IMG/VR virus record: IMGVR_UViG_3300045988_138709 | Source: a virus | Lineage: Duplodnaviria > Heunggongvirae > Uroviricota > Caudoviricetes | Direction: 5' to 3' (one strand) | DNA length: 40,733 bases | Part shown: piece after piece, positions 205 through 15,627 of the stretch | Layout of the letters: each line of letters starts with the position of its first letter | Position numbering within the stretch: the stretch's first letter is position 1 | The notes under the pieces: generated by a model | The model's input: the letters and a program-made list of their open reading frames with translations, nothing else | Told to the model about the DNA's origin: nothing | Database searches by the model: none | Translations under genes and position numbers: made by a program

Positions 205-1368
205 TTACACATCATTAGTACCTTCCTTATTTTTTGACTGGGACAAATTTGGGACCGATGGGTTCAGGATCGAGTCTATTTGCCGTGCGTGTTCGGTAAG
301 GTGATTAGGTGCAAGGTGAGCATATCGACGAACCATTTCGATAGACTCCCAGCCTCCCATTTCCTGTAACACTGACAACGGGACTCCGGCTTGAACCAGC
401 CAACTTGCCCAGGTGTGTCTCAAGTCGTGAAATCTGAAATCATCAATACCAGCCCGTCTCAGCGCCGCTTTCCAGGCTGTGTTTGCGTCATACCGCATCT
501 TCCTGACTGTTGGCGCTTTCGTTCCGTCTGGTTTGGTACAGCTTTCCTTGTACACAAATACCCAACGGTGATGATTCCCGATTTGTTTTTTCAATACGCG
601 ACATGCAGTATCATTCAGCGCAACGCCAATTGCGCGGTTTGATTTACTCTCTTCCGGGTTTATCCATGCCACCCGGCGCTGCATATCTATTTGTTGCCAT
701 TCAAGGTTGATGATGTTCGAGCGTCTTAGGCCTGTTGCCAGTGCAAATTCAACAACAGACTTTAATGGCTCCGGACATTCATCAATCAGCCTTTGTGCTT
801 CATGGGGCTCCAGCCAGCGGATCCGTTTATTCTTTGGTTGGGGCACTTTAATAATTGGTGCCTTATCCAGCATTTTCCATTCACGCTCTGCGGCTCTTAG
901 TAGGGCCTTTATAAATGAAAGATGCGTAGCCTTCGTTGCAACGGACGCTGGTTTTGGCGTGTATTCTGGAACAGGTTTCCCTTTTTTTCTGCATGCTTCT
1001 GCCCTGAGTTTCCAGTTTTCCTCATGACGCCGGTTCGTCATTTTCTGCATTGCTGAATAAATTTTTGATTCAGTAATGTCTCTTAGTTGCATTCCTGCGA
1101 AATGTTGAAGCCAGAATCCGATCCGGCTTTTGTCATCGTCCAGTGATTTTTTATGTGCTTTCTCTTCAAGCCACCTGACACACGCTTCCTCGAACGTTAT
1201 ATCAGGTATTTCACCAAGTTTGCTGACCCGCCATGCTTCAGCCTTTAGCTTGTCATGGAGTTCTGTCGCCTGCCTTTTGTCCTTTGTTCCAAGAGACTGT
1301 TTAAATCTTTTACCGTTCGGCAATGTGAAACTGGCGTACCATATTTCACCTCTGCGGAAGAGTGACAT
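205..1368 (-). CDS. int: Tyrosine-type phage integrase
   Basis: 387 aa; C-terminal catalytic motifs [10 protein letters not shown]...[15 protein letters not shown]; N-terminus [14 protein letters not shown] typical of tRNA-targeting prophage integrases; adjacent to tRNA. Confidence 0.9.
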
Positions 1369-4637: not shown

Positions 4638-5072
4638 ATGTCCGGTAATATCTATACGCTGTACAAATCCCACTGTGAAAATGTTGGAAAGTATCGGGGC
4701 ATTGAAATCAGTGGGGTAGTGTCATCAGTCGAAATAAGCAAAGTTGAATCAAGGGCAACATTACTTACTCTTTTGGACCTTGTCTTACATGAGCACCGGA
4801 AGAAATTCGGCACTCCCTATAATCAGTTGAATGGGAAAAAGGCTCTGGTTCACCTTATTCTGATGAAGCATCACTGGATGCCAAAACAGATTAATGAGAT
4901 GAAATTTGATGAACTTCTTCTTTCAATTCAGGATGAACTCACACTTGATAAAATAAGCGTAACCGCCCAGAAATTTTTAGATTATCGAGACTGGAGATCA
5001 CAAATTCATCACTTTGATGATTTTGACGAAAATGAATGGGATCCTAATTTGTCTGCACAATATCTAAAGTAA
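4638..5072 (+). CDS. Hypothetical protein encoded antisense to the early-left operon
   Basis: 144-aa ORF with ATG and AAAGGA RBS; AT-rich; no motif recognised. Confidence 0.5.
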   Translation: MSGNIYTLYKSHCENVGKYRGIEISGVVSSVEISKVESRATLLTLLDLVLHEHRKKFGTPYNQLNGKKALVHLILMKHHWMPKQINEMKFDELLLSIQDELTLDKISVTAQKFLDYRDWRSQIHHFDDFDENEWDPNLSAQYLK

Positions 5073-5250
5073 CATCCTGTGATAAAACCGTGATTTCCTG
5101 ATCCAGTTTTTTTAAGGAGTCTATTGTTTCCTGTCGATAAGACAGCACTTCACGAAGCTGGTTTATAGCTGCCAGCTTCTTTGTCATCCACTCATAAATT
5201 TCCTCATCTGTGTAGCCAGGCGCGACGATTTTGGGTTCTGTTTTGTGCAT
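5044..5250 (-). CDS. Small hypothetical protein (first gene of leftward early transcript?)
   Basis: ORF 5044..5265, start placed at internal ATG (MHKTEPK...). 3' end overlaps the convergent 4638..5072 gene. Weak. Confidence 0.35.
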   Translation of the reverse strand: MHKTEPKIVAPGYTDEEIYEWMTKKLAAINQLREVLSYRQETIDSLKKLDQEITVLSQDVTLDIVQTN

Positions 5251-5310
5251 TTCACATCTCCTCAAGTTATCAGTTACTTGTTGATGGGGACCAGATTGTT
5301 AAAGAGCTAA

Positions 5311-5332
5311 GCGTCCTGTAGGGCGCTTTTTT
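5311..5332 (+). terminator. Putative intrinsic terminator (hairpin plus T6)
   Basis: GCGTCC-TGTA-GGGCGC followed by TTTTTT, read by eye. Confidence 0.35.
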
Positions 5333-5409
5333 GTTGCTAACGAATCATCCTGGACTTCATATGCCCCAGGCGGCTACTTCGTGGGCGTCCTGCCTGTTCG
5401 TTGTTTCTC

Positions 5410-5446
5410 TTGGGTACATTACGTATCTCAAAGGTACATTGTCAAG
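5410..5446 (-). promoter_or_regulatory. Putative OL/pL: two GGTACATT repeats and a TTGACA -35 on the minus strand
   Basis: GGTACATT at about 5413-5420 and 5433-5440 (20-bp spacing); minus-strand TTGACA at 5445..5440; -10 is weak. Position just outside the repressor terminator matches a lambdoid pL. Confidence 0.4.
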
Positions 5447-5471
5447 TATAAAAAAACCTGCCGAAGCAGGT
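5447..5471 (-). terminator. Intrinsic terminator downstream of the repressor gene
   Basis: Minus-strand ACCTGC-TTCG-GCAGGT followed by a T7 run, immediately after the repressor stop. Confidence 0.55.
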
Positions 5472-5484
5472 TCATAAACATTGA

Positions 5485-6159
5485 TTAGGCTTTGATTTTG
5501 TATCTTCTTGGTTTTCCTGAGAAAATCACTGTACCAATTATAGAGCAATTACCGTTGATCTTAATGTAAGGCTCAGGCCAGTTTGGGTTTAACGCTTTGA
5601 GATAACGCTGTGTCCCATCTTCTATTAACCTTTTGAAGGTGGTTTCACCTGTATCGTGCATCAATGCAATAACGTCGTCACCGTGGCAGGCAGGTACTTC
5701 AGGATCGACAAAAATCATGTCTCCCGGGCGGTACTCATCAATCATTGAATCACCTATCACCCGCAAGATATAAGTCATTTCCCCACAGGGTACAGGGCAG
5801 GGATACGTTTCTGCTGTGCTCAAATCAACCTCAGAATATCCAACTTCTTTCCATGCTCCGGCCTGTACCCATGATATGACAGGGACTAATGTGATTTGTT
5901 TATTAGTGATTGAAACATCAGGTTTTTTTGTGATGTTCGTTGTCTGGTGTTCTTGATCGAGCCATCCGACAGGTAGGTCGAAACATTTTTCGATGTGTCG
6001 TGCCATGCTGTCACCGATATTTTTAGTAGCACCATCTCCCATAAACCTGCTGGTCTGGGTTGGCTCGCGATCAATCATAGTGGCAAAGGAAGAATTCCCG
6101 CCAACACCATCTCTCAGTTTTCTGGCGTTAGACCGCCGGATGTCATGGATTGTTTTCAT
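5485..6159 (-). CDS. cI: CI-like phage repressor (N-terminal HTH plus C-terminal S24 LexA-like peptidase domain)
   Basis: 224 aa; C-terminal autocleavage-domain motifs (...VISWVQAGAW..., GDSM, ...TFKRL...); divergent from the Cro-like gene; no obvious SD ahead of its ATG. Confidence 0.85.
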   Translation of the reverse strand: MKTIHDIRRSNARKLRDGVGGNSSFATMIDREPTQTSRFMGDGATKNIGDSMARHIEKCFDLPVGWLDQEHQTTNITKKPDVSITNKQITLVPVISWVQAGAWKEVGYSEVDLSTAETYPCPVPCGEMTYILRVIGDSMIDEYRPGDMIFVDPEVPACHGDDVIALMHDTGETTFKRLIEDGTQRYLKALNPNWPEPYIKINGNCSIIGTVIFSGKPRRYKIKA

Positions 6160-6169
6160 AACGAAATTA

Positions 6170-6249
6170 AAACCCTTGTACCGTTAAGGTACAAGTATCT
6201 TGAAGGTTCATTTCAATCATGTAATATGTACACCGGAGGTACATATTGT
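6170..6249. promoter_or_regulatory. OR region: two palindromic operators plus pR (TTGAAG-16-TAATAT)
   Basis: Palindromes CTTGTACC-N5-GGTACAAG (about 6175-6195) and ATATGTAC-N7-GTACATAT (about 6224-6246, overlapping the -10 at 6222-6227); -35 TTGAAG at about 6200-6205. Confidence 0.55.
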
Positions 6250-6450
6250 ATGAAAGCGTATTGGGACTCTTTAACCAAAGAACAGCAGGGCGAGTTGGCC
6301 GGAAAAGTTGGCTCAACACCTGGCTACTTACGGCTGGTTTTCAATGGCTATAAAAAAGCCAGTTTTGTGCTGGCTAAAAAACTTGAGCAATGCACGTCAG
6401 GTGCAATTACGAAATCTGACTTAAGACCGGATATCTATCCGAAAGATTAG
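6250..6450 (+). CDS. cro: Cro-like HTH regulator
   Basis: 66-aa protein from internal ATG (MKAYWDSLTKEQQGELAGKVGSTPGYLRLVFNG...) of ORF 5995..6450; sits directly behind pR/operator, divergent from the repressor. Confidence 0.7.
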   Translation: MKAYWDSLTKEQQGELAGKVGSTPGYLRLVFNGYKKASFVLAKKLEQCTSGAITKSDLRPDIYPKD

Positions 6451-6481
6451 CAGAACACTTTCAATTTTTAACCACAGAACG

Positions 6482-7045
6482 ATGAGGCTAATCGTGGGTA
6501 AGCATCACTGGAAAATAGAAAAACAGCCTGAGTGGTACGTGAAAGCTGTCAGAAAAACTATCGCGGCGTTGCCGGGGGGTTACGCTGAAGCGGCTGACTG
6601 GCTCGATGTAACAGAAAACGCTTTATTCAACCGCCTTCGTGCAGATGGCGATCAGATTTTCCCGCTGGGATGGGCAATGGTTTTACAGCGTGCTGGTGGC
6701 ACTCACTTCATTGCTGATGCTGTGGCGCAGTCTGCAAATGGCGTCTTTGTGTCTCTTCCTGACGTCGAGGATGTGGACAACGCCGATATTAACCAGCGTC
6801 TGCTGGAAGTCATTGAACAGATCGGCAGTTATTCAAAACAGATTCGTTCAGCAATCGAAGACGGTGTAGTGGAACCGCATGAGAAGACAGCAATTAACGA
6901 CGAGCTGTACCTCTCAATTTCGAAGCTGCAGGAGCATGCAGCACTGGTCTACAAAATCTTTTGCGTTTCAGAAAGTAGTGGCGCCCGCGAGTGTGCAGCT
7001 CCGGGCGCCGTGGCGTGTCGTGACTGTGGAGAAACTAACGCATGA
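6482..7045 (+). CDS. Putative CII-like regulatory protein
   Basis: 187-aa ORF in the position of a lambdoid cII; family assignment is a weak recollection (CP76-type CII) without motif proof. Confidence 0.45.
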
Positions 7046-7380
7046 ACAGTTTAACAACACACTACCGTCGCTCGCAACTGATTGCGCTTCCTGTACCGGG
7101 TGGAAAAGCGAAGGTGGAATATTGCTATGCAGTGAATGTACCAGGTGACAGGGAAATTGTAACCCACAGCTTTGCAGAGTGGGCTGTGGGGGATTTCAAC
7201 CGGCAGAAGGAGACAGTCCTTTGCGACAAGTTAACCGCTGGTTCAAAGATCACTACGGAGTGCCCGTCAGAGTCATTCGTTGGGAGCCGGAAACACAACG
7301 GGTTATCTACCTCCGCGAAGGCTATGAGCATGAGTGCTTCAGTCCGCTCGAACAGTTTCGTCGTAAATTCAGGGAAATAG
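7042..7380 (+). CDS. Hypothetical protein; likely frame-disrupted (continues in ORF 7179..7400)
   Basis: ATGA overlap with the upstream gene. The first ~60 aa look protein-like, then a low-complexity Ser-rich tail, while the protein-like sequence continues in the +1-shifted ORF 7179..7400. Confidence 0.4.
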
Positions 7381-7389
7381 AGGTCGGTC

Positions 7390-8331
7390 ATGAGCACTAA
7401 ATTAACCGGCTATGTATGGGATGGTTGCGCAGCGTCAGGCATGAAATTATCCAGCGTGGCAATTATGGCCCGCCTGGCTGATTTCAGTAATGACGAAGGT
7501 GTGTGCTGGCCATCAATTGAAACTATTGCCCGTCAGATTGGCGCGGGGATGAGTACCGTCAGGACGGCTATCGCACGGCTGGAAGCAGAAGGCTGGTTAA
7601 CGCGTAAGGCGCGTCGCCAGGGTAACCGCAATGCGTCGAATGTTTATCAGCTTAACGTTGCGAAGCTTCAGGCAGCGGCATTTTCTCAACTGTCAGATTC
7701 TGACCCGTCAAAATCTGACGCATCAAAATCTGACCCGTCAAAATTTGATGCGTCGAAATCTGGCAAAAAAGCGGGTTTTCACCCGTCAGAATCTGGCGGG
7801 GATCCGTCAGTAAAATCAAAACATGATCCGTTAGATAAAAAACCTTCTCGTCCGGACGCTTCGCAACCGGACACGCAGACGGATGAACAGGATTTTTTAA
7901 CTCGCCATCCTGATGCGGTTGTATTCAGCCCTAAAAAGCGCCAGTGGGGAACGCAGGATGATTTGACCTGCGCACAGTGGCTCTGGAAAAAAATCATTGC
8001 CCTGTACGAGCAGGCCGCCGAATGTGACGGCGAGGTGGTTCGTCCCAAAGAACCGAACTGGACAGCATGGGCAAACGAAATTCGCCTGATGTGTGTGCAG
8101 GATGGTCGTACTCACAAACAAATCTGCGAGATGTACAGCCGCGTCAGCCGCGATCCGTTCTGGTGCCGTAACGTGCTCAGCCCGTCGAAGTTGCGGGAAA
8201 AATGGGATGAGCTTTCCCTGCGCTTATCGCCGTCCGTCAGCACGCACACAGAAAAACGTGAAGACCCGTACTTCAAAGCCAGTTACGACAACGTGGACTA
8301 CAGCCAGATCCCGGCAGGATTCAGGGGGTGA
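7390..8331 (+). CDS. Replication initiator (lambda O-like; N-terminal HTH, repetitive linker, C-terminal domain)
   Basis: 313 aa; N-terminal HTH (...SSVAIMARLADFSNDEGVCWPSIETIARQIG...); iteron array inside the gene encodes an SDPSKSD-type linker; position after cro/cII. Confidence 0.8.
   Translation: MSTKLTGYVWDGCAASGMKLSSVAIMARLADFSNDEGVCWPSIETIARQIGAGMSTVRTAIARLEAEGWLTRKARRQGNRNASNVYQLNVAKLQAAAFSQLSDSDPSKSDASKSDPSKFDASKSGKKAGFHPSESGGDPSVKSKHDPLDKKPSRPDASQPDTQTDEQDFLTRHPDAVVFSPKKRQWGTQDDLTCAQWLWKKIIALYEQAAECDGEVVRPKEPNWTAWANEIRLMCVQDGRTHKQICEMYSRVSRDPFWCRNVLSPSKLREKWDELSLRLSPSVSTHTEKREDPYFKASYDNVDYSQIPAGFRG
7691..7797. repeat. Iteron array (5-6 copies of a ~15-bp unit, consensus CCGTCAAAATCTGAC) - candidate origin
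   Basis: Tandem units at about 7691, 7705, 7720, 7735, 7750 and 7783, followed by an A-rich stretch, all inside the O-like gene as for lambda ori. Confidence 0.65.
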
Positions 8332-8822
8332 TCATGAGTCTTTTGAATGAAGTTCAGAAATTCATTGAAGCCCATCCGGGGTGTACTTCCGGAGACATTG
8401 CGGATGCTTTTGCAGGTTACTCACGGCAGCGCGTTCTGCAGTCAGCAAGCAAGTTACGTCAGAGTGGGCGTGTGGCTCACCGTTGTGAAGGAGATACACG
8501 CAGACATTTCCCACGCCTGACTGAGAGAGCGCAGGAGCCAGAACCACAACCAGTTCGTGAAACCAGACCTGTGCGCAATTTCTATGTCGGCACTAACGAT
8601 CCCCGGGTGATTTTGTGCCTGACCCGCCAGGCGGAAGAACTGGAGTCCAGGGGCTTATACCGTCGTGCTGCAACGGTGTGGATGGCGGCATTCCGTGAAA
8701 GCCACTCCCAGCCAGAACGAAACAATTTTCTGGCGCGTCGTGAGCAGTGTTTACGGAAAAGCAGCAAGCGCGCTGTATCGGGTGATGAGTGGTATCTGTC
8801 AGGGAATTACGTGGGGGCTTAA
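8328..8822 (+). CDS. Hypothetical protein with winged-helix-like N-terminus
   Basis: 164-aa ORF, ATGA-coupled to the O-like gene. No helicase-loader motifs, so not a P/DnaC-like protein. Confidence 0.55.
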   Translation: MIMSLLNEVQKFIEAHPGCTSGDIADAFAGYSRQRVLQSASKLRQSGRVAHRCEGDTRRHFPRLTERAQEPEPQPVRETRPVRNFYVGTNDPRVILCLTRQAEELESRGLYRRAATVWMAAFRESHSQPERNNFLARREQCLRKSSKRAVSGDEWYLSGNYVGA

Positions 8823-9475
8823 TGAGTAATAAATATTGCCAGGAGCTGGTGGAACTGCGGAACAAACCAGCCCATGAACTGAAGGAAGTGGGTGATCAGT
8901 GGCGCACGCCGGACAACATTTTCTGGGGAATTAATACCCTGTTTGGCCCGTTTGTTCTGGATCTGTTCACTGACGGTGATAACGCCAAATGTGCTGCGTA
9001 TTACACGGCGGAAGACAACGCGCTGGCGCATGACTGGTCAGAACGTCTTGCGGAGCTTAAAGGGGCTGCCTTTGGTAATCCCCCATACAGCCGCGCCAGT
9101 CAGCATGAGGGGCAATACATCACCGGCATGCGTTACATCATGAAGCATGCCAGTGCCATGCGTGATAAAGGCGGGCGCTATGTTTTCCTGATCAAAGCTG
9201 CCACCAGCGAAGTGTGGTGGCCGGAAGATGCAGACCATATTGCTTTTATTCGCGGGCGTATTGGTTTTGAACTGCCTGTCTGGTTTATCCCGAAAGACGA
9301 GAAGCAGGTGCCGACAGGAGCGTTCTTCGCTGGTGCTATTGCTGTTTTCGATAAGACCTGGAAGGGACCGGCAATCAGCTACATCGGGCGCGATGAACTT
9401 GAGACATGTGGTGAGGCGTTTCTGGCGCAGGTTCGCCAGCAGGCGGAAAAACTGATCAGGGAGATGGCGGCATGA
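8822..9475 (+). CDS. Phage DNA N6-adenine methyltransferase (Dam-like)
   Basis: Motif ...FGNPPYS... (NPPY catalytic motif); start moved to ATG (MSNKYCQELV...), overlapping the upstream stop. Confidence 0.8.
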   Translation: MSNKYCQELVELRNKPAHELKEVGDQWRTPDNIFWGINTLFGPFVLDLFTDGDNAKCAAYYTAEDNALAHDWSERLAELKGAAFGNPPYSRASQHEGQYITGMRYIMKHASAMRDKGGRYVFLIKAATSEVWWPEDADHIAFIRGRIGFELPVWFIPKDEKQVPTGAFFAGAIAVFDKTWKGPAISYIGRDELETCGEAFLAQVRQQAEKLIREMAA

Positions 9476-9798
9476 CGACATTAACTCAATGCCAGCAGCA
9501 GGTGCTGGATATGCTGATTTCTTATCAGAAAGAACGTGGCTTCCCGCCAACCAATCAGGAGGTGGCTACCATGCTGGGATACCGTTCAGTGAATGCAGCG
9601 GTGGAGCATCTTCGCGCACTGGAGAAAAAAGGCGTCATCACGATAAAGCGTGGCGTGGCACGGGGGATAACGCTTCATACCGCGGTGAAGGACGACGACA
9701 GCGAGGCGGTCGGGATTATCCGCTCACTGCTTGCCGGTGAGGAAAACGCCAGGCTGCGTGCAGCCCACTGGTTACATGAGAGGGGCCTGAAAGTATGA
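9472..9798 (+). CDS. LexA N-terminal DNA-binding-domain protein (no peptidase domain)
   Basis: 108 aa; winged-HTH resembling the LexA DNA-binding domain (...NQEVATMLGYRSVNAAVEHLRALEKKGVITI...); ATGA-coupled. Confidence 0.55.
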   Translation: MTTLTQCQQQVLDMLISYQKERGFPPTNQEVATMLGYRSVNAAVEHLRALEKKGVITIKRGVARGITLHTAVKDDDSEAVGIIRSLLAGEENARLRAAHWLHERGLKV

Positions 9799-10184
9799 AG
9801 CTGATCCTGCCTTTTCCGCCCAGCGTGAACACGTACTGGCGACACCCCAACAAAGGGGCGTTTGCTGGTAAGAGCCTGATAAGCTCGGCGGGGCGAAAAT
9901 TCCAGAGCGCGGCGTGCGCAGCAATAGTTGAGCAGTTACGTCGTCTGCCGAAACCAACGTCGGCACCTGCTTCAGTGGAGATCGTGTTGTTTCCTCCGGA
10001 TAACAGGATCCGCGATCTGGACAACTATAACAAGGCGCTGTTTGACGCCCTGACCCACGCGGGGGTGTGGGAAGACGACAGTCAGGTGAAAAGAATGCTG
10101 GTGGAGTGGGGACCGGTTATCCCGGAAGGGAAGGTCGAGATCACTATCAGTAAGTACGAGAAAACGGCGGGTGCAGCCGCCTGA
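9795..10184 (+). CDS. rusA: RusA Holliday-junction resolvase
   Basis: 129 aa; MKLILPFPPSVNTYWR...RDLDNYNKALFDALTHAGVWEDDSQV matches RusA catalytic-core pattern. Confidence 0.9.
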   Translation: MKLILPFPPSVNTYWRHPNKGAFAGKSLISSAGRKFQSAACAAIVEQLRRLPKPTSAPASVEIVLFPPDNRIRDLDNYNKALFDALTHAGVWEDDSQVKRMLVEWGPVIPEGKVEITISKYEKTAGAAA

Positions 10185-10203
10185 TTAAGAGGAGAAACGA
10201 AGT

Positions 10204-11001
10204 ATGAATAATCTGATGGTTATTGATGGTATTGAAGTTCGTCGTGATGCTTATGGGCGTTACAGCCTGAACGATCTGCACAGGGCTGCTGGTTCTCTGG
10301 ATAAGCATAAGCCTGCATTCTGGCTCCGCAATGAGCAAACTGAGCGTTTAATAAGCGAGTTGCAGATTTGCAACTCGGTCAATATAGAGCCAGTTAACGT
10401 TATTCGTGGCGGAAATAACCAGGGGACGTATGTCTGCAAAGAACTGGTGTATGCCTATGCAATGTGGATCAGCCCGTCATTCCATCTGAAGGTGATCCGT
10501 ACTTTCGACATGGTAACCAGCGCACCGGAAAAATTATCCGGACAGGCTGCTGACAAGATGCAGGCTGGTGTGATTCTGCTGGACTTTATGCGCCGGGAAT
10601 TAAACCTGTCTAACTCTTCAGTGCTTGGTGCCTGCCAGAAACTCCAGGAGGCTGTTGGCTTACCGAATCTGGCACCGCGCTATGCCATTGATGCTCCTGC
10701 TGATGCACACGATGGCTCAAGTCGCCCCACGCTGTCTCTGAGTGCACTGCTGAGGCAGTATGGTATCCGCCTGACGGCTAATCAGGCATATCACCAGATG
10801 GTGAAGCTGGGGATCGTTGAACAACGCGAACGATACAGCCGTACCGCGATTAACAACATCAAAAAATTCTGGTCGCTGACGGCGAAAGGCTGCATGTTCG
10901 GCAAGAACATCACCAGTCCTGCAAATCCGCGCGAGACGCAGCCGCATTTCTTCGAATCCCGATTCCCTGAGCTGTTAAAACTGCTCGATACCGTTCATTG
11001 A
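10204..11001 (+). CDS. KilA-N domain protein
   Basis: N-terminus MVIDGIEVRRDAYGRYSLNDLHRAAG...KPAFWLRNEQTERLI typical of the KilA-N DNA-binding domain; C-terminal domain unassigned. Confidence 0.75.
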   Translation: MNNLMVIDGIEVRRDAYGRYSLNDLHRAAGSLDKHKPAFWLRNEQTERLISELQICNSVNIEPVNVIRGGNNQGTYVCKELVYAYAMWISPSFHLKVIRTFDMVTSAPEKLSGQAADKMQAGVILLDFMRRELNLSNSSVLGACQKLQEAVGLPNLAPRYAIDAPADAHDGSSRPTLSLSALLRQYGIRLTANQAYHQMVKLGIVEQRERYSRTAINNIKKFWSLTAKGCMFGKNITSPANPRETQPHFFESRFPELLKLLDTVH

Positions 11002-11002
11002 G

Positions 11003-11998
11003 GTGACCGTGAGAGCACTACTGACCCCTGAAATTGCCCCGCGTATGGGGATTGTATTGTTCAGGCCAGGTTCAGAGCTGATGCCCCTGTTTATGCAGGG
11101 GCGTGTCCTGCTGGAGCCTGAGCCGGAACGTTATTCATCTTTCGCCAGTGGTGCCGTTCCGGCGGCATCACAACCGCTGGCGGATGATCCTGCCGTTCGG
11201 GCCGTGTTCCGCAATGAGGCAGTGATCCGTCGTGCTGGTGGCGTGGAATGTCTTGAAAGCTGGTTACTTCGTGAAAAGGGCTGTCAGTGGCCTCATTCCG
11301 ACTGGCACAGCGAGAACATGACCACAATGCGGCACGCTCCGGGAGCAATTCGTCTGTGCTGGCACTGCGATAACCAGCTGCGTGACCAGTTCACGGAACG
11401 GCTGGAATCAATGGCAACGGATAACTGTGCCCGCTGGGTGTTGTCTGTTGTGCGTCGGGATCTCGGTTTTGATGATAGTCACGTTGTGACAATGCCGGAA
11501 CTGTGCTGGTGGCTGATTCGTAATGACCTGGCGGATGCCTTACCGGAAAGTGCAGCCCGTAAGGCACTGAGATTACCAAAGCCTATTGTGCCGTCTGTCA
11601 CCCGGGAAAGTGACCTTGTGCCTTCGGTTCCTGCCACCAGCATCATCCAGGATAAGGCGAAAAAGGTGCTGGCGCTGAAAGTGGATCCGGAGTCGCCGGA
11701 GTCTTTTATGTTACGCCCAAAACGTCGCCGCTGGGTTAATGAAAAGTACACGCGCTGGGTTAAGACACAGCCGTGTGCATGTTGTGGAAAGCCCGCTGAT
11801 GATCCCCACCACCTGATAGGTTACGGTCAGGGTGGAATGGGAACAAAAGCGCATGACCTTTTTGTGTTGCCTTTGTGCAGAAAGCATCACGACGAGCTGC
11901 ATGCGGATACCGTGGCATTTGAAGAAAAGTATGGCTCCCAGCTGGAGCTGATATTTCGTTTTATCGATCGCGCGCTGGCAATTGGCGTGCTGGCCTGA
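11003..11998 (+). CDS. DUF968-like protein with C-terminal Cys/His (HNH-like) cluster
   Basis: 331 aa; C-terminal ...CACCGKPADDPHHL...CRKHHDELH...; common in lambdoid nin regions (recall). Confidence 0.65.
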   Translation: MTVRALLTPEIAPRMGIVLFRPGSELMPLFMQGRVLLEPEPERYSSFASGAVPAASQPLADDPAVRAVFRNEAVIRRAGGVECLESWLLREKGCQWPHSDWHSENMTTMRHAPGAIRLCWHCDNQLRDQFTERLESMATDNCARWVLSVVRRDLGFDDSHVVTMPELCWWLIRNDLADALPESAARKALRLPKPIVPSVTRESDLVPSVPATSIIQDKAKKVLALKVDPESPESFMLRPKRRRWVNEKYTRWVKTQPCACCGKPADDPHHLIGYGQGGMGTKAHDLFVLPLCRKHHDELHADTVAFEEKYGSQLELIFRFIDRALAIGVLA

Positions 11999-12013
11999 TT
12001 TTTTCGGAGAAAG

Positions 12014-12382
12014 GTGATGCGTGATATTCAGATGGTTCTTGAGCGTTGGGGGGCATGGGCGGCGAGTGACAGTTCAGGAGTAGACTATTCGCCTATAGCT
12101 GCTGGGTTTAAGGGACTTCTTCCCTATACAAGCAAAACACGTCAGGCTTGTTCAGATAGTGATGCATTAATTATTGAAGGTTGTCTTGCTCGTCTAAAGC
12201 AAAAAAGGCCAGACGAACATTCGCTTCTTGTTGCCCATTACCTATACGGTATCTCTAAAAGAAAGCTCGCCAAAGCTCGTAAAAAGGATGAGAAACTAAT
12301 ACGCATTGAGATACAGATGGCTGAGGGGTTTATTGAAGGCTGTCTCTCAATGCTTGATCTTTGTTTGGAAATGGACCAATAG
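12014..12382 (+). CDS. Q: Late antiterminator Q (phage-82-type Q family)
   Basis: 122 aa; MRDIQMVLERWGAWAA...IAAGFKGL...CLARLK... strongly resembles 82-type Q proteins (recall). Confidence 0.85.
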   Translation: MMRDIQMVLERWGAWAASDSSGVDYSPIAAGFKGLLPYTSKTRQACSDSDALIIEGCLARLKQKRPDEHSLLVAHYLYGISKRKLAKARKKDEKLIRIEIQMAEGFIEGCLSMLDLCLEMDQ

Positions 12383-12405
12383 ACTACAAGAATAGCAACT
12401 GCCGC

Positions 12406-12828
12406 TCAGCTTTGCGGATCGGCAGTTTCTGATGGTGTAATGTTACGCGCAGATGTTTCAAGTATAGATTCCCTTCCGATTGATACCAAAATTTCGATTG
12501 TTCTTGCTTTAGCCTGCATCAATGTTGATTTTATTTCAGGACTTAAGTGGTCAGATCGTAACTGCTTCTCAATCTCAGCCAAATCACGCTTGCATTTTGC
12601 TCTTTTGGCTGCGTCTTCTGGAGATTCGAAACCATGTCTCGAAATGAACCAATTCATGACGTAAGTTAAAGTTGCCGCAACACCCGGTACTAATGCGTAG
12701 GCTACAGTTCGCCACACGCTATTAGGGTCGGTTAAAATCGCGCTAACAAGAACACTTAAAATTGCTCCCCAACCACCAGTTGAAAGGGTAGCTTTTCCTG
12801 TGCTTAGACCTTTAGTTTGAGAATTCAT
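12406..12828 (-). CDS. Cassette gene 3: predicted membrane protein (two N-terminal TM helices plus charged helical tail)
   Basis: 140 aa; hydrophobic segments GGWGAILSVLVSAIL and VAYALVPGVAATLTYVMNWFI; ATG start; ATGA-coupled to cassette gene 2. Confidence 0.6.
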   Translation of the reverse strand: MNSQTKGLSTGKATLSTGGWGAILSVLVSAILTDPNSVWRTVAYALVPGVAATLTYVMNWFISRHGFESPEDAAKRAKCKRDLAEIEKQLRSDHLSPEIKSTLMQAKARTIEILVSIGRESILETSARNITPSETADPQS

Positions 12829-13094
12829 TTTCGTTTTGAATTCTCCGCAATTGCCTCATCAATGAGGGTTGTTAGCATTTTTCCCTTTTTACTTGGAACT
12901 TTTATTACTAGCGTTTTGGTCACTCCGGAATCTTCATCGTGATATCGGAATTCGAAGACTTTTGTAGGGAATAGTCGACGCCAAAGCAAGGCTGACGCTG
13001 AATAGCAAAAACGACTAAAGGCAGGGATGATCATTATCACCCCTATCCAGAAGATCAGTTGTGCTATCTGCATGTTTAGTGTCACTTTTGTCAA
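12825..13094 (-). CDS. Cassette gene 2: small single-pass membrane protein
   Basis: 89-aa ORF (possible TTG start; in-frame ATG 7 codons in); TM segment IAQLIFWIGVIMIIPAF; stop overlaps gene 3 start. Confidence 0.5.
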   Translation of the reverse strand: MTKVTLNMQIAQLIFWIGVIMIIPAFSRFCYSASALLWRRLFPTKVFEFRYHDEDSGVTKTLVIKVPSKKGKMLTTLIDEAIAENSKRK

Positions 13095-13960
13095 GCCTCA
13101 GCAGGGCGTTTTCGTTTTACTTTGGTTATAGCATACTTGGTTGTGGCATTTCGCGCAGTGAAAGTTTTTATAGTTTTTAGCTCAACAACAAACAAATCTT
13201 CTTTTGTAAAACTGATGATTCCGTTTTGAACTTGGTGTATAAACAACTGATCTTCAAAGGTAACAGCATGCTCTTCGCCTAAATAATCGATTCTCCAACC
13301 CTTTGTACCCTCGAAGTTGATCTGTACGAATCTAACATTGACTTCTTCTACAGACTCTTCTTTTTCAAGTAGTGTGCCTCTAGGCAGCGGTTTGATCTCT
13401 TCGGTTTCACTTCCTTCAAGACGAACGACTTCTTCGCCTTCATCATTCAGCACCTTAAATACTGCTCCTTGTTTGCCGTCTAATGGTGCACGAACTACAT
13501 TCACAAGGGCATCACGGACTTCTGGATCTGTTACTAACTTAGCCACTGAGTCATGGCAAACAATTTCTTCCCCTTCAAGCTCAAGAACAGATTCTTCTGT
13601 TCCTGCCCGTTTTGTTACCGAAATTACTTTCTTGCTGCCCAGTTGGCGGATTAGTGATAATGCTGGAGCTCCAATAGTAGCCCCGGCTATCCCTGTTAGG
13701 CCAATCACTTTTGCTACGTCGACGGCATGAGGAACAAGCTCCATCATCGTATAGGATACGCCGAGTGATCCCGCTTCAGCTGGATTAGTAACCATTAACT
13801 TAACGGTTTGTTGGCCGTCATTAAGTCTTTTATCAGCTGCTGATATTAAATCTGCCATCGAACCTATGGAAATGCTTAATGTTTTGGCATCAATTTTATG
13901 CTGTGCTAATTCATTATCCTCTGCATCGTAGAAGATCTGAAAAGAAGTTGTTTTAGTCAC
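13091..13960 (-). CDS. Cassette gene 1: hypothetical 289-aa protein (acidic linker, one hydrophobic segment)
   Basis: Long ORF with probable GTG start; no catalytic motif recognised; hydrophobic stretch VAKVIGLTGIAGATIGAPALSLI; stop overlaps gene 2 start. Confidence 0.6.
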   Translation of the reverse strand: MTKTTSFQIFYDAEDNELAQHKIDAKTLSISIGSMADLISAADKRLNDGQQTVKLMVTNPAEAGSLGVSYTMMELVPHAVDVAKVIGLTGIAGATIGAPALSLIRQLGSKKVISVTKRAGTEESVLELEGEEIVCHDSVAKLVTDPEVRDALVNVVRAPLDGKQGAVFKVLNDEGEEVVRLEGSETEEIKPLPRGTLLEKEESVEEVNVRFVQINFEGTKGWRIDYLGEEHAVTFEDQLFIHQVQNGIISFTKEDLFVVELKTIKTFTARNATTKYAITKVKRKRPAEA

Positions 13961-14082
13961 TCTTTGCTCGCTATGTCTTGATTTTTTTCCACAAAATACC
14001 TTTTTTTGGTGTAAAAAACATTATCGCGGTCCGCAAAAATTGCGTTACTGTGTTAAGAGTGATTACTTCGTCACACAGCTTA

Positions 14083-14108
14083 AACCCGCCGTCGAGCGGG
14101 TTTTTTTA
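14083..14108 (+). terminator. Intrinsic terminator (tR'-like) downstream of Q
   Basis: AACCCGC-CGTCGA-GCGGGTT followed by a T7 run. Confidence 0.5.
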
Positions 14109-14230
14109 TACCTGTAAACCTGGTGCAGTACGGTAAACACGCTGGTGGTCGTGAATACTGACTTTTTATCTTGCTGGCTTTTTAGACAAGAGTTATTGGT
14201 ATGTCATGTTAACCATGAAGGTAAAAAGAC

Positions 14231-14425
14231 ATGCTAAAACAGCAAGATATGACAGAAACGGCGAAAGTTGTTTTTAATGAATTAAACGGCAAACCGGCAA
14301 CAGTCGGGGAGATAGCACAAAACACATACCTTTCACGCGAACGCTGTCAGTTAATACTGACCCAGCTGGTTATGGCGGGGCTGGCAGATTACCAGTTCGG
14401 CTGTTACAGACGCCTTCAGCAATGA
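14231..14425 (+). CDS. Small hypothetical protein (possible winged-helix)
   Basis: 64-aa ORF with ATG and AAGGTAAAAAG upstream; precedes the methyltransferase. Confidence 0.4.
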   Translation: MLKQQDMTETAKVVFNELNGKPATVGEIAQNTYLSRERCQLILTQLVMAGLADYQFGCYRRLQQ

Positions 14426-14574
14426 AGGGCTTTTAATTTGTGAAAATGGGCGGCTGGTGGGTGTTGGTAGCACCTGCCAGCCATTCGCTCATGCTTACTG
14501 GTCACAAGCGAACCATGGCCCACTGCTTTAGCGCAAAAGCAGAGTGAGCCTACCAGAGTTACGCTTACTGATCC

Positions 14575-15627
14575 ATGAAAAATACTGTAAAAATAAACAG
14601 TGTTGATTTAATCAACGCTGATTGCCTGCATTTTATTCAGTCCCTGCCTGATGACTCCATTGATCTGATTGTTACCGATCCGCCGTACTTCAAAGTGAAG
14701 CCCAACGGCTGGGACAATCAGTGGAAAGGGGACGAAGATTACCTGAAGTGGCTGGACCACTGTCTGGCCCAGTTCTGGCGGGTACTGAAACCAGCCGGAA
14801 GCCTTTACCTGTTCTGTGGACATCGCCTGGCATCTGATATCGAGATCATGATGCGTGAACGTTTCAACGTTCTTAACCATATCATCTGGGCGAAGCCGTC
14901 CGGACGATGGAACGGGTGTAATAAAGAAAGCCTGCGGGCATATTTCCCCGCTACAGAGCGCGTTCTGTTTGCTGAACATTACCAGGGGCCATATCGCGGC
15001 AAAAGTGACGATTATGCGGCAAAAGAAAGGGAACTCAAACAGCACATAATGGCACCGCTGATTTCGTATTTCAGGGATGCTCGTGCCGAACTGGGTATAA
15101 CGGCAAAACAGATTGCCGAAGCCACTGGTAAGAAAAATATGGTTTCCCACTGGTTTGGTGCCAGTCAGTGGCAGTTGCCGAATGAGGCTGACTACCGGAA
15201 GTTGCAGGCACTGTTTTCCCGTATAGCGGCAGATAAATTTCAGGAACAACAACTGGAACAACCACACCACCAGCTGGTGGCATCTTATGATTCACTGAAT
15301 CGCAAATATTCTGAATTGCTGGATGAGTTTAAAACTCTCCGGCGCTATTTCTCCGTATCAGTTTCCGTGCCTTATACCGACGTCTGGACGCATAAACCCG
15401 TTCAGTTCTACCCGGGTAAACATCCGTGTGAGAAGCCTGCGGATATGCTCCGGCAAATAATCAGTGCCAGTAGTCGACAAGGCGATCTGGTTGCTGATTT
15501 CTTTATGGGATCCGGTTCCACAATAAAAGCGGCAATGGCGCTGGGGCGTCGGGCGTTAGGTGTTGAACTTGAGTCAGAGCGGTTTAATCAGACGGTGAAA
15601 GAGGTAAGTGAACTGGTGGGGAAATAA
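14575..15627 (+). CDS. DNA methyltransferase (N6-adenine/N4-cytosine class; DPPY then FxGSGS order)
   Basis: 350 aa; N-terminal ...LIVTDPPYF... and C-terminal ...DFFMGSGST...; no adjacent restriction endonuclease seen. Confidence 0.85.
   Translation: MKNTVKINSVDLINADCLHFIQSLPDDSIDLIVTDPPYFKVKPNGWDNQWKGDEDYLKWLDHCLAQFWRVLKPAGSLYLFCGHRLASDIEIMMRERFNVLNHIIWAKPSGRWNGCNKESLRAYFPATERVLFAEHYQGPYRGKSDDYAAKERELKQHIMAPLISYFRDARAELGITAKQIAEATGKKNMVSHWFGASQWQLPNEADYRKLQALFSRIAADKFQEQQLEQPHHQLVASYDSLNRKYSELLDEFKTLRRYFSVSVSVPYTDVWTHKPVQFYPGKHPCEKPADMLRQIISASSRQGDLVADFFMGSGSTIKAAMALGRRALGVELESERFNQTVKEVSELVGK

What the first reader, a model, noticed from the sequence alone, without database searches (positions are those of the whole stretch)
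9472..9798. LexA DNA-binding-domain-only protein in the early-right operon
A 108-aa protein resembling the LexA N-terminal winged HTH but lacking the peptidase/dimerisation domain could occupy SOS boxes without being RecA-cleavable, or act as a dominant-negative on host LexA: a possible phage tool for rewiring the SOS response or its own induction.
Basis: inference. Interest (0 to 1): 0.45.

Follow-up and report, generated by a model that had tools for sequence, protein, structure and literature searches.

The report
Truncated LexA-like phage DNA-binding protein
A lambdoid prophage gene encodes the DNA-binding head of the SOS repressor LexA joined to a small helical tail instead of the self-cleaving domain; the gene is real, very common in E. 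coli and already annotated, but its function has not been tested.

Summary
ORF 9472..9798 (+) encodes a 108-aa protein. Residues 1-68 are a full-length LexA_DNA_bind winged helix (Pfam E=2.9e-19; about 50% identical to E. coli LexA; model rmsd 1.0 A to LexA on DNA). There is no S24 peptidase domain. Residues 75-103 instead form a conserved two-helix hairpin that LexA lacks. The gene lies in the delayed-early (nin) operon, translationally coupled to a Dam-type methylase upstream and RusA downstream. It occurs in 2233 of 5426 complete E. coli genomes and in SfV, mEp460, cdtI and Stx2 phages, where it is already annotated as a LexA-family or LexA-DNA-binding-domain protein. I found no functional study. 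LexA's base-reading residues are kept (S39, N41, A42, E45), but E44 is non-acidic in all 129 family representatives tabulated. In three sister clades the gene follows a strong SOS box and dinI. My best reading (about 0.4) is a RecA-proof LexA surrogate that binds CTGT-type operators. The main rival (about 0.3) is a regulator with its own phage operator, like GIL01 gp6. A dominant-negative action on host LexA is unlikely. The kind is known; the interest is moderate.

The parts
9472..9798 (+). Complete ORF for the 108-aa LexA-like protein (stop included)
   Evidence: Searches give the ORF. Pfam LexA_DNA_bind E=2.9e-19. PHROG 362 matches full length at 1.4e-59. It is 98% identical to mEp460_046, annotated 'LexA DNA binding domain protein'.
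9460..9463 (+). GGAG Shine-Dalgarno, 8 nt upstream of the ATG
   Evidence: Read directly from the sequence.
9472..9675 (+). Residues 1-68: LexA-type winged helix-turn-helix (helices 6-22, 28-35, 40-52; strands 56-58, 66-68)
   Evidence: AlphaFold model. Foldseek to 3jso/3jsp/1lea gives rmsd 0.9-1.2 A at 49-51% identity.
9586..9627 (+). Residues 39-52: recognition helix SVNAAVEHLRALEK (LexA has SPNAAEEHLKALAR)
   Evidence: Alignments. Family statistics. Contact residues taken from PMC11442139 and PMC3091678.
9694..9780 (+). Residues 75-103: conserved two-helix hairpin (H75-88, H93-103) that replaces the LexA cleavage and catalytic domain; proposed dimerisation element
   Evidence: Model pLDDT is 86-88. 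A93, A97 and L101 are invariant or nearly so across clades at 39-66% identity. No counterpart appears in any LexA structure hit. The dimerisation role is an inference.
9733..9738 (+). Ala88-Gly89, which HMMER aligns with the LexA Ala84-Gly85 scissile bond; judged not to be a cleavage-site relic
   Evidence: Alignment. G89 is Asn in Citrobacter members and other residues in other clades. It lies inside predicted helix 75-88.
8789..9475 (+). Upstream Dam-family N6-adenine methyltransferase gene; its stop overlaps this gene's start
   Evidence: Pfam PF05869 E=1e-45. A methyltransferase of varying family precedes the homologue in most loci.
9795..10184 (+). Downstream RusA Holliday-junction resolvase gene; its start overlaps this gene's stop
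   Evidence: Pfam PF05866. RusA follows the homologue in nearly every locus examined.
14583..14602 (.). The only strong SOS box in the window (TACTGTAAAAATAAACAGTG), covering codons 3-9 (its last base is the first base of codon 10) of the late-region N6_N4 methylase gene; a candidate target, though host LexA is its default ligand
   Evidence: It scores 22.6-22.7 bits on a matrix built from 23 E. coli SOS boxes recalled from memory (those boxes score 13.5-27.3). The next best window site scores 12.1, and the highest score in 100 shuffles was 20.2. It is conserved, including at synonymous positions, in 7 phages with or without the LexA-like gene.

Best explanation
The gene encodes a LexA-derived, sequence-specific DNA-binding protein that RecA* cannot inactivate. 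It keeps the LexA winged helix and its base-reading residues. The linker, cleavage site and serine-protease/dimerisation domain are replaced by a short conserved helical hairpin, which I infer lets it dimerise. In this phage it is made only after the cI-like repressor has been cleaved, or after infection, as part of the delayed-early pR/nin transcript, translationally coupled to Dam and RusA. I propose that it binds CTGT-type (SOS-box-like) operators and so acts as a non-cleavable stand-in for LexA when host LexA has been destroyed. It would then re-impose repression on LexA-controlled promoters of the host, of co-resident prophages, and possibly on the phage's own SOS box at the late-region methylase gene. 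In the sister clades, where the gene sits behind an SOS box and dinI, it would give delayed negative feedback on an SOS-induced prophage operon. Shown: domain architecture, absence of the protease, operon position, conservation of the contact residues, and SOS-box linkage in sister clades. Inferred: dimerisation through the hairpin, the actual DNA target, and a repressing rather than activating effect.
For: The N-domain is LexA-specific: Pfam 2.9e-19, all top PDB hits are LexA, and rmsd is 1.0 A to DNA-bound LexA at about 50% identity. The residues named as main base readers of CTGT (S39, N41, A42, E45) are all retained here. They are conserved across 129 representatives at down to about 40% overall identity: 129/129, 127/129, 113/129, and 116/129 acidic at position 45. 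Asn41 reads the last T:A pair of CTGT (PMC5999292). There is no S24 domain. The conserved C-terminal hairpin has hydrophobic stripes. Winged helix plus C-terminal helices is the usual dimeric layout of the weaker structural neighbours MntR and MepR. In three clades (Klebsiella, Enterobacter, Salmonella) a 20-27-bit SOS box with a promoter lies 440-620 bp upstream of the gene. No + strand terminator lies between them, and in Klebsiella dinI, another SOS damper, is the first gene. Cleaved repressor N-domains can retain DNA binding and repression and must be removed by Clp proteases (PMC10584840; PMC3159453). From my own recall of older LexA work (Kim and Little 1992, not retrievable here), the isolated LexA N-domain binds operators cooperatively. 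A canonical SOS box co-occurs in the same phage in several independent clades.
Against: No binding data exist. E44, listed as a DNA-contacting residue, is non-acidic in all 129 tabulated representatives; one further locus, L039, keeps Glu. P40 is replaced. A42S occurs in close relatives, and A42S is one of the three changes in the altered-specificity LexA408 mutant (my recall). About 10% of representatives, including the large Klebsiella clade, lack an acidic residue at 45, which a strict host-SOS-box mimic should not tolerate. The characterised precedent, GIL01 gp6, evolved a different operator and activates transcription. The window has only one SOS box, and it is also present in phages lacking this gene (phiP27, phiNP, Morganella), so it does not need this protein. 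Tight binding there would obstruct the phage's own late transcript. Geometry set by a hairpin dimer could demand a different half-site spacing, and no alternative CTGT spacing is enriched in the window.
Confidence: 0.4

Rival explanations
1. It is a phage-specific transcription factor with its own operator, the GIL01 gp6 model. In this view the LexA fold was captured and its specificity drifted away from the SOS box. The protein would then activate or repress one or a few phage promoters, for instance in the nin, Q or late region or at the KilA-N/antirepressor gene, to time lytic development.
For: gp6 is exactly such a case: a truncated LexA homologue that binds GaCACAnnTGTGaC at the late promoter and activates it. 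The family-wide loss of E44, the replacement of P40 and clade-specific recognition helices (SSSNAVLLHL, RSQNTVFIHL, RSPNAANDHL) suggest shifted specificity. The gene keeps a fixed place just upstream of RusA, DUF968 and Q in all loci.
Against: No candidate operator was found. The gene has no flanking intergenic DNA in this window. Inverted repeats in 5000-14700 are the immunity operators, terminators or coding palindromes. Half-site spacing scans were negative. S39, N41, A42 and E/D45 are far better conserved than expected if each clade had a different operator. gp6's key Lys38 is not present, and the two proteins show no BLASTP alignment.
Confidence: 0.3
2. It is a DNA-binding accessory of the neighbouring DNA-transaction genes rather than a transcription factor. 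Examples would be targeting or modulating RusA resolution or the upstream methyltransferase, by analogy with small nin-region DNA-binding proteins placed next to recombination nucleases.
For: In this window the reading frames overlap (ATGA) with Dam upstream and RusA downstream. The methyltransferase-then-this-gene-then-RusA order persists even when the methyltransferase belongs to a different family (PF05869, PF02086, PF00145).
Against: Positional conservation is typical of mosaic nin regions and need not reflect function. Klebsiella prophages have the gene without RusA, and the Klebsiella, Enterobacter and Salmonella loci lack an adjacent methylase. Conservation of base-reading residues points to sequence-specific operator recognition.
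Confidence: 0.12
3. It is a dominant-negative poison or decoy of host LexA. The protein would inactivate LexA by forming mixed oligomers or by titrating RecA*, thereby inducing or prolonging SOS.
For: The only support is the homology to LexA. HMMER extends the alignment through the linker to an Ala-Gly pair.
Against: The LexA dimer interface and the RecA*-docking surface lie in the C-terminal domain, which is absent. The Ala-Gly pair is not conserved in the family and lies within a predicted helix. Co-location with dinI in Klebsiella prophages suggests damping of SOS, not amplification.
Confidence: 0.04
4. It is a decaying remnant of a captured lexA gene with no current function.
For: No phenotype has been reported. 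Many fragmentary or fused gene calls exist in databases.
Against: An ORF covering at least 80% of the query is present in 2223 of 5426 complete E. coli genomes. Full-length homologues at 39-66% identity in at least eight genera keep both the wHTH and the hairpin, with invariant core residues. The gene has a good SD and translational coupling.
Confidence: 0.03

Closest known systems
Escherichia coli LexA repressor (PDB 1lea, 1jhh, 3jso)
   Same: The N-terminal winged helix is about 50% identical and superposes at rmsd about 1 A. The recognition helix keeps S39, N41, A42, E45, H46 and L47.
   Different: It has no S24 peptidase/dimerisation domain, no catalytic Ser/Lys and no conserved Ala-Gly site. 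E44 is Val and P40 is Val. It carries an extra conserved C-terminal helical hairpin. It is phage-encoded in the pR/nin operon rather than an autoregulated chromosomal gene.
GIL01 (Bacillus tectivirus) gp6, a truncated LexA homologue that activates late promoter P3 (PMC6182141)
   Same: It is a temperate-phage LexA_DNA_bind protein without the cleavable domain. It is encoded in the early operon and so is made only once lytic transcription begins.
   Different: gp6 is 66 aa, a bare wHTH with no hairpin, derived from Gram-positive LexA. It uses Lys38 and binds GaCACAnnTGTGaC. It shows no BLASTP alignment to the window protein. The host, phage family and late-gene control (Q antitermination here) all differ.
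PHROG 362 / NCBI 'LexA family transcriptional regulator' (mEp460_046, SfV orf42, SfIV, SfII, cdtI, Stx2c and Stx2a phage genes)
   Same: This is the same protein family and in many cases essentially the same gene (97-98% nucleotide identity). The neighbours are the same: Dam upstream and RusA downstream.
   Different: Nothing material differs. These are database annotations without experimental characterisation. A Stx-phage survey lists the family only as a pfam01726 'pham' (PMC8136144).
Gifsy prophage LexA-controlled dinI-antirepressor-irsA operon (PMC3121763)
   Same: In Klebsiella, Enterobacter and Salmonella prophages the longer homologues occupy the slot after an SOS box, dinI and/or a small phrog_1813 protein. 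That is the position irsA holds in Gifsy.
   Different: IrsA is a DUF1367 protein unrelated to LexA. phrog_1813 is not detectably related to GftA. The window phage uses a cleavable cI and has no SOS box upstream of the gene.

Membership tests
Bona fide LexA repressor (TIGR00498) | N-terminal LexA-type winged helix-turn-helix | tested here: met
   PF01726 matches 1-65/65 at E=2.9e-19. Rmsd is 1.0 A to 3jso.
Bona fide LexA repressor (TIGR00498) | C-terminal S24 peptidase/dimerisation domain with Ser-Lys dyad | tested here: not met
   The protein ends at residue 108. TIGR00498 covers only 1-91/203 and scores 70.8 against a cutoff of 110.95. There is no Peptidase_S24 hit.
Bona fide LexA repressor (TIGR00498) | Conserved Ala-Gly scissile bond in a flexible loop | tested here: not met
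   A88-G89 aligns with A84-G85. However, G89 varies (N, R, E, D and others) across the family, and the pair lies within predicted helix 75-88.
Bona fide LexA repressor (TIGR00498) | Binds CTGT-N8-ACAG SOS boxes | not testable with these tools
   Only indirect evidence is available. S39, N41, A42 and E45 are retained, while E44 is lost.
Pfam PF01726 LexA_DNA_bind / PHROG 362 | Profile match above the family threshold over the full model | tested here: met
   69 bits against a cutoff of 23.7. PHROG 362 matches 1-108 to 1-106/106 at E=1.4e-59.
GIL01 gp6-type truncated LexA activators | LexA DNA-binding domain without a cleavable domain, phage-encoded, early operon | tested here: met
   gp6 context is.
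GIL01 gp6-type truncated LexA activators | Sequence relatedness to gp6 and the critical recognition-helix Lys38 | tested here: not met
   There is no BLASTP alignment. The gp6 helix reads SHKTAHRYL, against RSVNAAVEHL here.
GIL01 gp6-type truncated LexA activators | Binds a palindrome at the -35 of a late promoter and activates it | not tested
   Late genes here depend on Q antitermination (Q at 12014..12382, tR' at 14082-14103). No candidate operator was found.
Gifsy IrsA (DUF1367) | Homology to STM1020/IrsA | tested here: not met
   BLASTP gives E=0.23 over 9 residues. STM1020 is PF07105 DUF1367. tblastn of the family finds no Gifsy record.

The most novel reading that the evidence does not exclude
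The protein is a RecA-proof LexA surrogate used in conflict between mobile elements. Once this prophage is induced, or when its SOS-controlled operon fires in the Gifsy-like clades, the protein re-occupies SOS boxes that host LexA has vacated. It would thereby silence LexA-controlled antirepressors of rival prophages, colicin and toxin genes and SOS-induced host functions. The result would be a phage-imposed shut-off, or a pulse, of the SOS response. With the gene in about 41% of complete E. coli genomes and in Stx2 phages, it would be a common, overlooked modifier of SOS dynamics and of Shiga-toxin phage induction hierarchies.
Probability: 0.22. Interest if true: 0.65.

Novelty: new member of a known kind. 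Interest (0 to 1): 0.38.

Why it matters
LexA cleavage is the master switch for DNA-damage responses, mutagenesis, persistence and prophage induction, including induction of Shiga-toxin phages. A widespread prophage protein able to occupy LexA operators without being cleavable would uncouple part of the SOS regulon from RecA. It could explain differences between strains in SOS dynamics or in which prophage wins after induction. If it instead has its own operator, it would be a second independent case, after GIL01 gp6, of phages converting the LexA head into a private regulator. Both outcomes can be tested cheaply with EMSA, reporters in lexA(Def) cells and a deletion in mEp460 or SfV. At present it is an annotated gene of unknown function, not a discovery.

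Tried and rejected
(1) Cleavage-site relic. HMMER aligns A88-G89 with LexA A84-G85, which suggested possible trans-cleavage. I rejected this because G89 is not conserved and lies in a predicted helix.

(2) IrsA identity. The Gifsy operon dinI-antirepressor-irsA suggested that irsA might be this family. I rejected this because STM1020 is DUF1367 with no similarity. The phrog_1813 neighbour is also not detectably GftA-like, and no phage record annotates it as an antirepressor.

(3) Alternative operator geometry. Counts of CTGT/ACAG pairs at spacings 0-20 in both orientations gave nothing convincing after allowing for multiple testing, and the sites found lie in coding DNA. The inverted-repeat survey of 5000-14700 found only immunity operators, terminators and coding palindromes.

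(4) Homodimer prediction.

(5) Genome-wide sampling. The genome-contig scan returned mostly authentic host lexA genes, because the seed peptide is shared with LexA. Only 4 short-family loci were usable.

(6) Literature. The primary LexA-DNA structure paper (PMC2921665) is not held, so the contact list comes from secondary sources that disagree on E44. Searches found no functional study of this enterobacterial family.

(7) No promoter was detected immediately upstream of the gene.

Full report
**1. The observation**

The window is a lambdoid prophage. Its order is integrase (205..1368, -), a cI-like repressor with an S24 peptidase domain (5485..6159, -), cro-like, cII, a replication protein, a PerC-like protein and a Dam-family methylase (8789..9475). 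Next comes the ORF in question (9472..9798), followed by RusA (9795..10184), a KilA-N protein, a DUF968/HNH protein and antiterminator Q (12014..12382). The late region follows.

A GGAG sits 8 nt upstream. Four-base ATGA overlaps join it to both neighbours, so it is translated as part of the delayed-early right operon. No separate promoter was detected in front of it.

**2. It is a LexA head, not a generic winged helix**

- Pfam LexA_DNA_bind matches end to end (1-65/65, E=2.9e-19, 69 bits against a cutoff of 23.7).
- The best PDB sequence matches are all LexA (1lea E=7e-16).
- An AlphaFold model built on a 32-sequence family alignment has mean pLDDT 83.
- By Foldseek its closest structures are DNA-bound E. 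coli LexA (3jso, 3jsp) and the NMR N-domain (1lea), at rmsd 0.9-1.2 A over 67-69 residues and 49-51% identity. Generic wHTH proteins (MntR, MepR) score four or more orders of magnitude worse.
- The LexA equivalog model TIGR00498 matches only positions 1-91 of 203 and stays below its cutoff. No S24 domain is present.

**3. It is not a bare domain**

After a short low-confidence linker (residues 69-74), residues 75-88 and 93-103 form two helices with pLDDT 86-88. This hairpin is conserved in relatives as distant as 39% identity from Cronobacter, Klebsiella, Enterobacter, Kosakonia, Atlantibacter and Salmonella. A97 is invariant, A93 and L101 are nearly so, and hydrophobic positions recur with helical periodicity.

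HMMER aligns A88-G89 with the LexA scissile bond A84-G85. This is not a cleavage-site relic, because Gly89 is Asn in Citrobacter members and varies elsewhere, and the pair lies inside a predicted helix. I infer that the hairpin replaces the LexA C-domain as a dimerisation element. A dimer prediction could not be run, so this remains an inference.

**4. Distribution and prior knowledge**

The gene is 97-98% identical in phages mEp460 (annotated 'LexA DNA binding domain protein'), SfV (orf42, 'unknown') and SfIV and in 15 Stx2c phages; homologues in SfII, cdtI and Stx2a phages were found by tblastn with a Salmonella family member. It is present in 2233 of 5426 complete E. coli genomes, where PGAP names it 'LexA family transcriptional regulator'. 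One strain, XH990, is 100% identical. It belongs to PHROG 362, 'transcriptional repressor'.

A comparative Stx-phage study lists it only as a pfam01726 gene family (PMC8136144). None of the full-text searches aimed at this family found a functional study of it. The function is not.

**5. What the DNA-binding surface says**

A review of the 3JSO complex names S39, N41, A42 and E45 as the main mediators of CTGT recognition (PMC11442139). An earlier paper adds E44 (PMC3091678). Asn41 reads the last T:A pair through a water molecule (PMC5999292). The window protein has S39, N41, A42, V44 and E45.

| Position | Residues in 129 short-family representatives |
|---|---|
| 39 | S in 129/129 |
| 41 | N in 127/129 |
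| 42 | A in 113/129 (remainder S, G or T) |
| 44 | Never acidic: V 52, A 23, T 17, N 17, F 10, L 8 |
| 45 | E or D in 116/129 |

One Scandinavium homologue outside that table (L039) keeps Glu44.

The residues that read CTGT are thus under strong constraint across the family. This argues for an SOS-box-like half-site. The systematic loss of Glu44, the replacement of Pro40, and A42S in close relatives leave room for altered affinity or specificity. About 10% of representatives, notably the large Klebsiella clade (SSSNAVLLHL), have lost the acidic residue at 45.

**6. Genomic context**

Across the window and 18 related loci from several genera, the neighbourhood is stereotyped: [DNA methyltransferase] - this gene - RusA - (KilA-N/Ant) - DUF968 - Q. 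The methyltransferase belongs to different Pfam families in different phages (PF05869, PF02086, PF00145). This looks like positional conservation in a mosaic nin region.

Three clades carry an N-terminal extension of about 25 aa (118-135 aa in total; Klebsiella L007/L008, Enterobacter L009/L010, Salmonella L017). Their arrangement is more informative:

- The gene lies 440-620 bp downstream of a strong SOS box (27.3, 20.1 and 26.5 bits).
- In L009 that box abuts a promoter-like element.
- In L017 a terminator precedes the box.
- No + strand terminator lies between the box and the gene.
- The intervening genes are dinI (Klebsiella only) and a small conserved phrog_1813 protein.

This is the layout of the Gifsy LexA-controlled dinI-antirepressor-irsA operon (PMC3121763). 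I tested whether irsA is this family and it is not: IrsA is DUF1367. In those clades the truncated LexA is therefore probably itself SOS-induced, beside DinI, a known SOS modulator.

**7. SOS boxes in the window**

I scored the window with a matrix built from 23 E. coli SOS boxes recalled from memory. Exactly one strong site emerged: TACTGTAAAAATAAACAGTG at 14583-14602. It scores 22.6-22.7 bits, within the 13.5-27.3 range of the training boxes. The next best site scores 12.1, and the highest score in 100 shuffles was 20.2. It covers codons 3-9 of the late-region N6_N4 methylase gene (14575..15627), downstream of tR' (14082-14103).

The site is conserved in phiP27, phiNP, Klebsiella, Salmonella and Morganella phages at 72-97% DNA identity. 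The Thr codon is always ACT, and the codon before Ser always ends in C (AAC, TCC or GGC). This points to DNA-level selection. The box occurs in phages with and without the LexA-like gene, so host LexA is its default ligand and it does not prove a partnership. It nonetheless co-occurs with the gene in several independent clades.

**8. Mechanism**

My best-supported reading (about 0.4) is a RecA-insensitive LexA surrogate. It would be a dimeric wHTH protein that recognises CTGT-type operators and is produced only once lytic transcription, or in sister clades an SOS promoter, is on. It would re-impose repression on LexA-controlled promoters after host LexA has been cleaved.

Cleaved repressor N-domains can keep repressor activity and must be removed by Clp proteases. 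A stable N-domain protein with its own dimerisation module is therefore a credible repressor.

The chief rival (about 0.3) is the gp6 model, in which the captured LexA head has drifted to a private phage operator and regulates phage genes. I found no candidate operator, but the changes at positions 40 and 44 keep this rival alive.

- A role as accessory to RusA or Dam: about 0.12.
- Dominant-negative action on host LexA: about 0.04, disfavoured because the LexA dimerisation and RecA-docking domain is absent.
- A decaying pseudogene: about 0.03, contradicted by conservation.

**9. Verdict**

The thing is a new, uncharacterised member of a known kind (phage-encoded truncated LexA homologues). 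It is already annotated as such and is very widespread. Interest is moderate: it becomes interesting only if experiments show that it really rewires SOS control.

Noticed in passing
window 14583-14602 (within methylase ORF 14575..15627): A near-consensus SOS box sits at codons 3-9 of the late-region N6_N4 DNA methylase gene, about 480 bp downstream of tR'. It is conserved in 7 phages at 72-97% identity, including at synonymous positions (Thr always ACT; the codon before Ser always ends in C). This suggests host LexA controls or blocks this orphan methylase.
   Followed up: partly
window 13091..13960 (-), with 12825..13094 (-) and 12406..12828 (-): A three-gene reverse-strand insert lies between Q and the late promoter/terminator. 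The 288-aa product matches the PADLOC candidate defence family PDC-S42 over its full length (E=8.9e-33). The two smaller products have no family hits.
   Followed up: partly
window 14231..14425 (+) and palindrome 14595-14623: A 64-aa ORF lies just upstream of the methylase; its phiP27 counterpart is annotated as a TrmB-family regulator in RefSeq. A 14-nt-arm inverted repeat (AAACAGTGTTGATT/AATCAACGCTGATT) overlaps the right half of the SOS box. This may be a controller-type circuit for the methylase.
   Followed up: no
L001 1546-1565 (mEp460 repressor gene) and L004 35267-35286 (phiNP cI-like gene): Strong SOS boxes (25.3 and 22.7 bits) lie about 165 nt inside the coding sequence of the cI-like repressor genes of two other phages. 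The window's own cI has none.
   Followed up: no
L007/L008 5385-6393; L009/L010 5531-6408; L017 5476-6357: Klebsiella, Enterobacter and Salmonella prophages carry an SOS-box promoter followed by (dinI), a conserved small phrog_1813 protein, and the LexA-like gene. This mirrors the Gifsy dinI-antirepressor-irsA operon. phrog_1813 may be an uncharacterised LexA-controlled antirepressor, and the L009 prophage repressor lacks an S24 domain.
   Followed up: partly
proteins P0132, P0148, P0152, P0153, P0186, P0211 and others: Some proteins from other bacteria contain two tandem LexA_DNA_bind domains in one chain and no peptidase domain (sequences checked only for P0132 and P0148). They would be single-chain pseudo-dimers of the LexA head.
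   Followed up: no
L017 9794-11390 (-): The Salmonella prophage carrying a homologue also encodes adjacent AcrVA2-like and Cas1-domain proteins just after its late-region methylase.
   Followed up: no
window 14082-14103 and about 14030-14065: A strong intrinsic terminator (AAACCCGC...GCGGGTTT followed by a T run) is preceded by an AT-rich stretch, which is the expected pR'/tR' arrangement. It is displaced about 1.7 kb from Q by the reverse-strand insert.
   Followed up: partly
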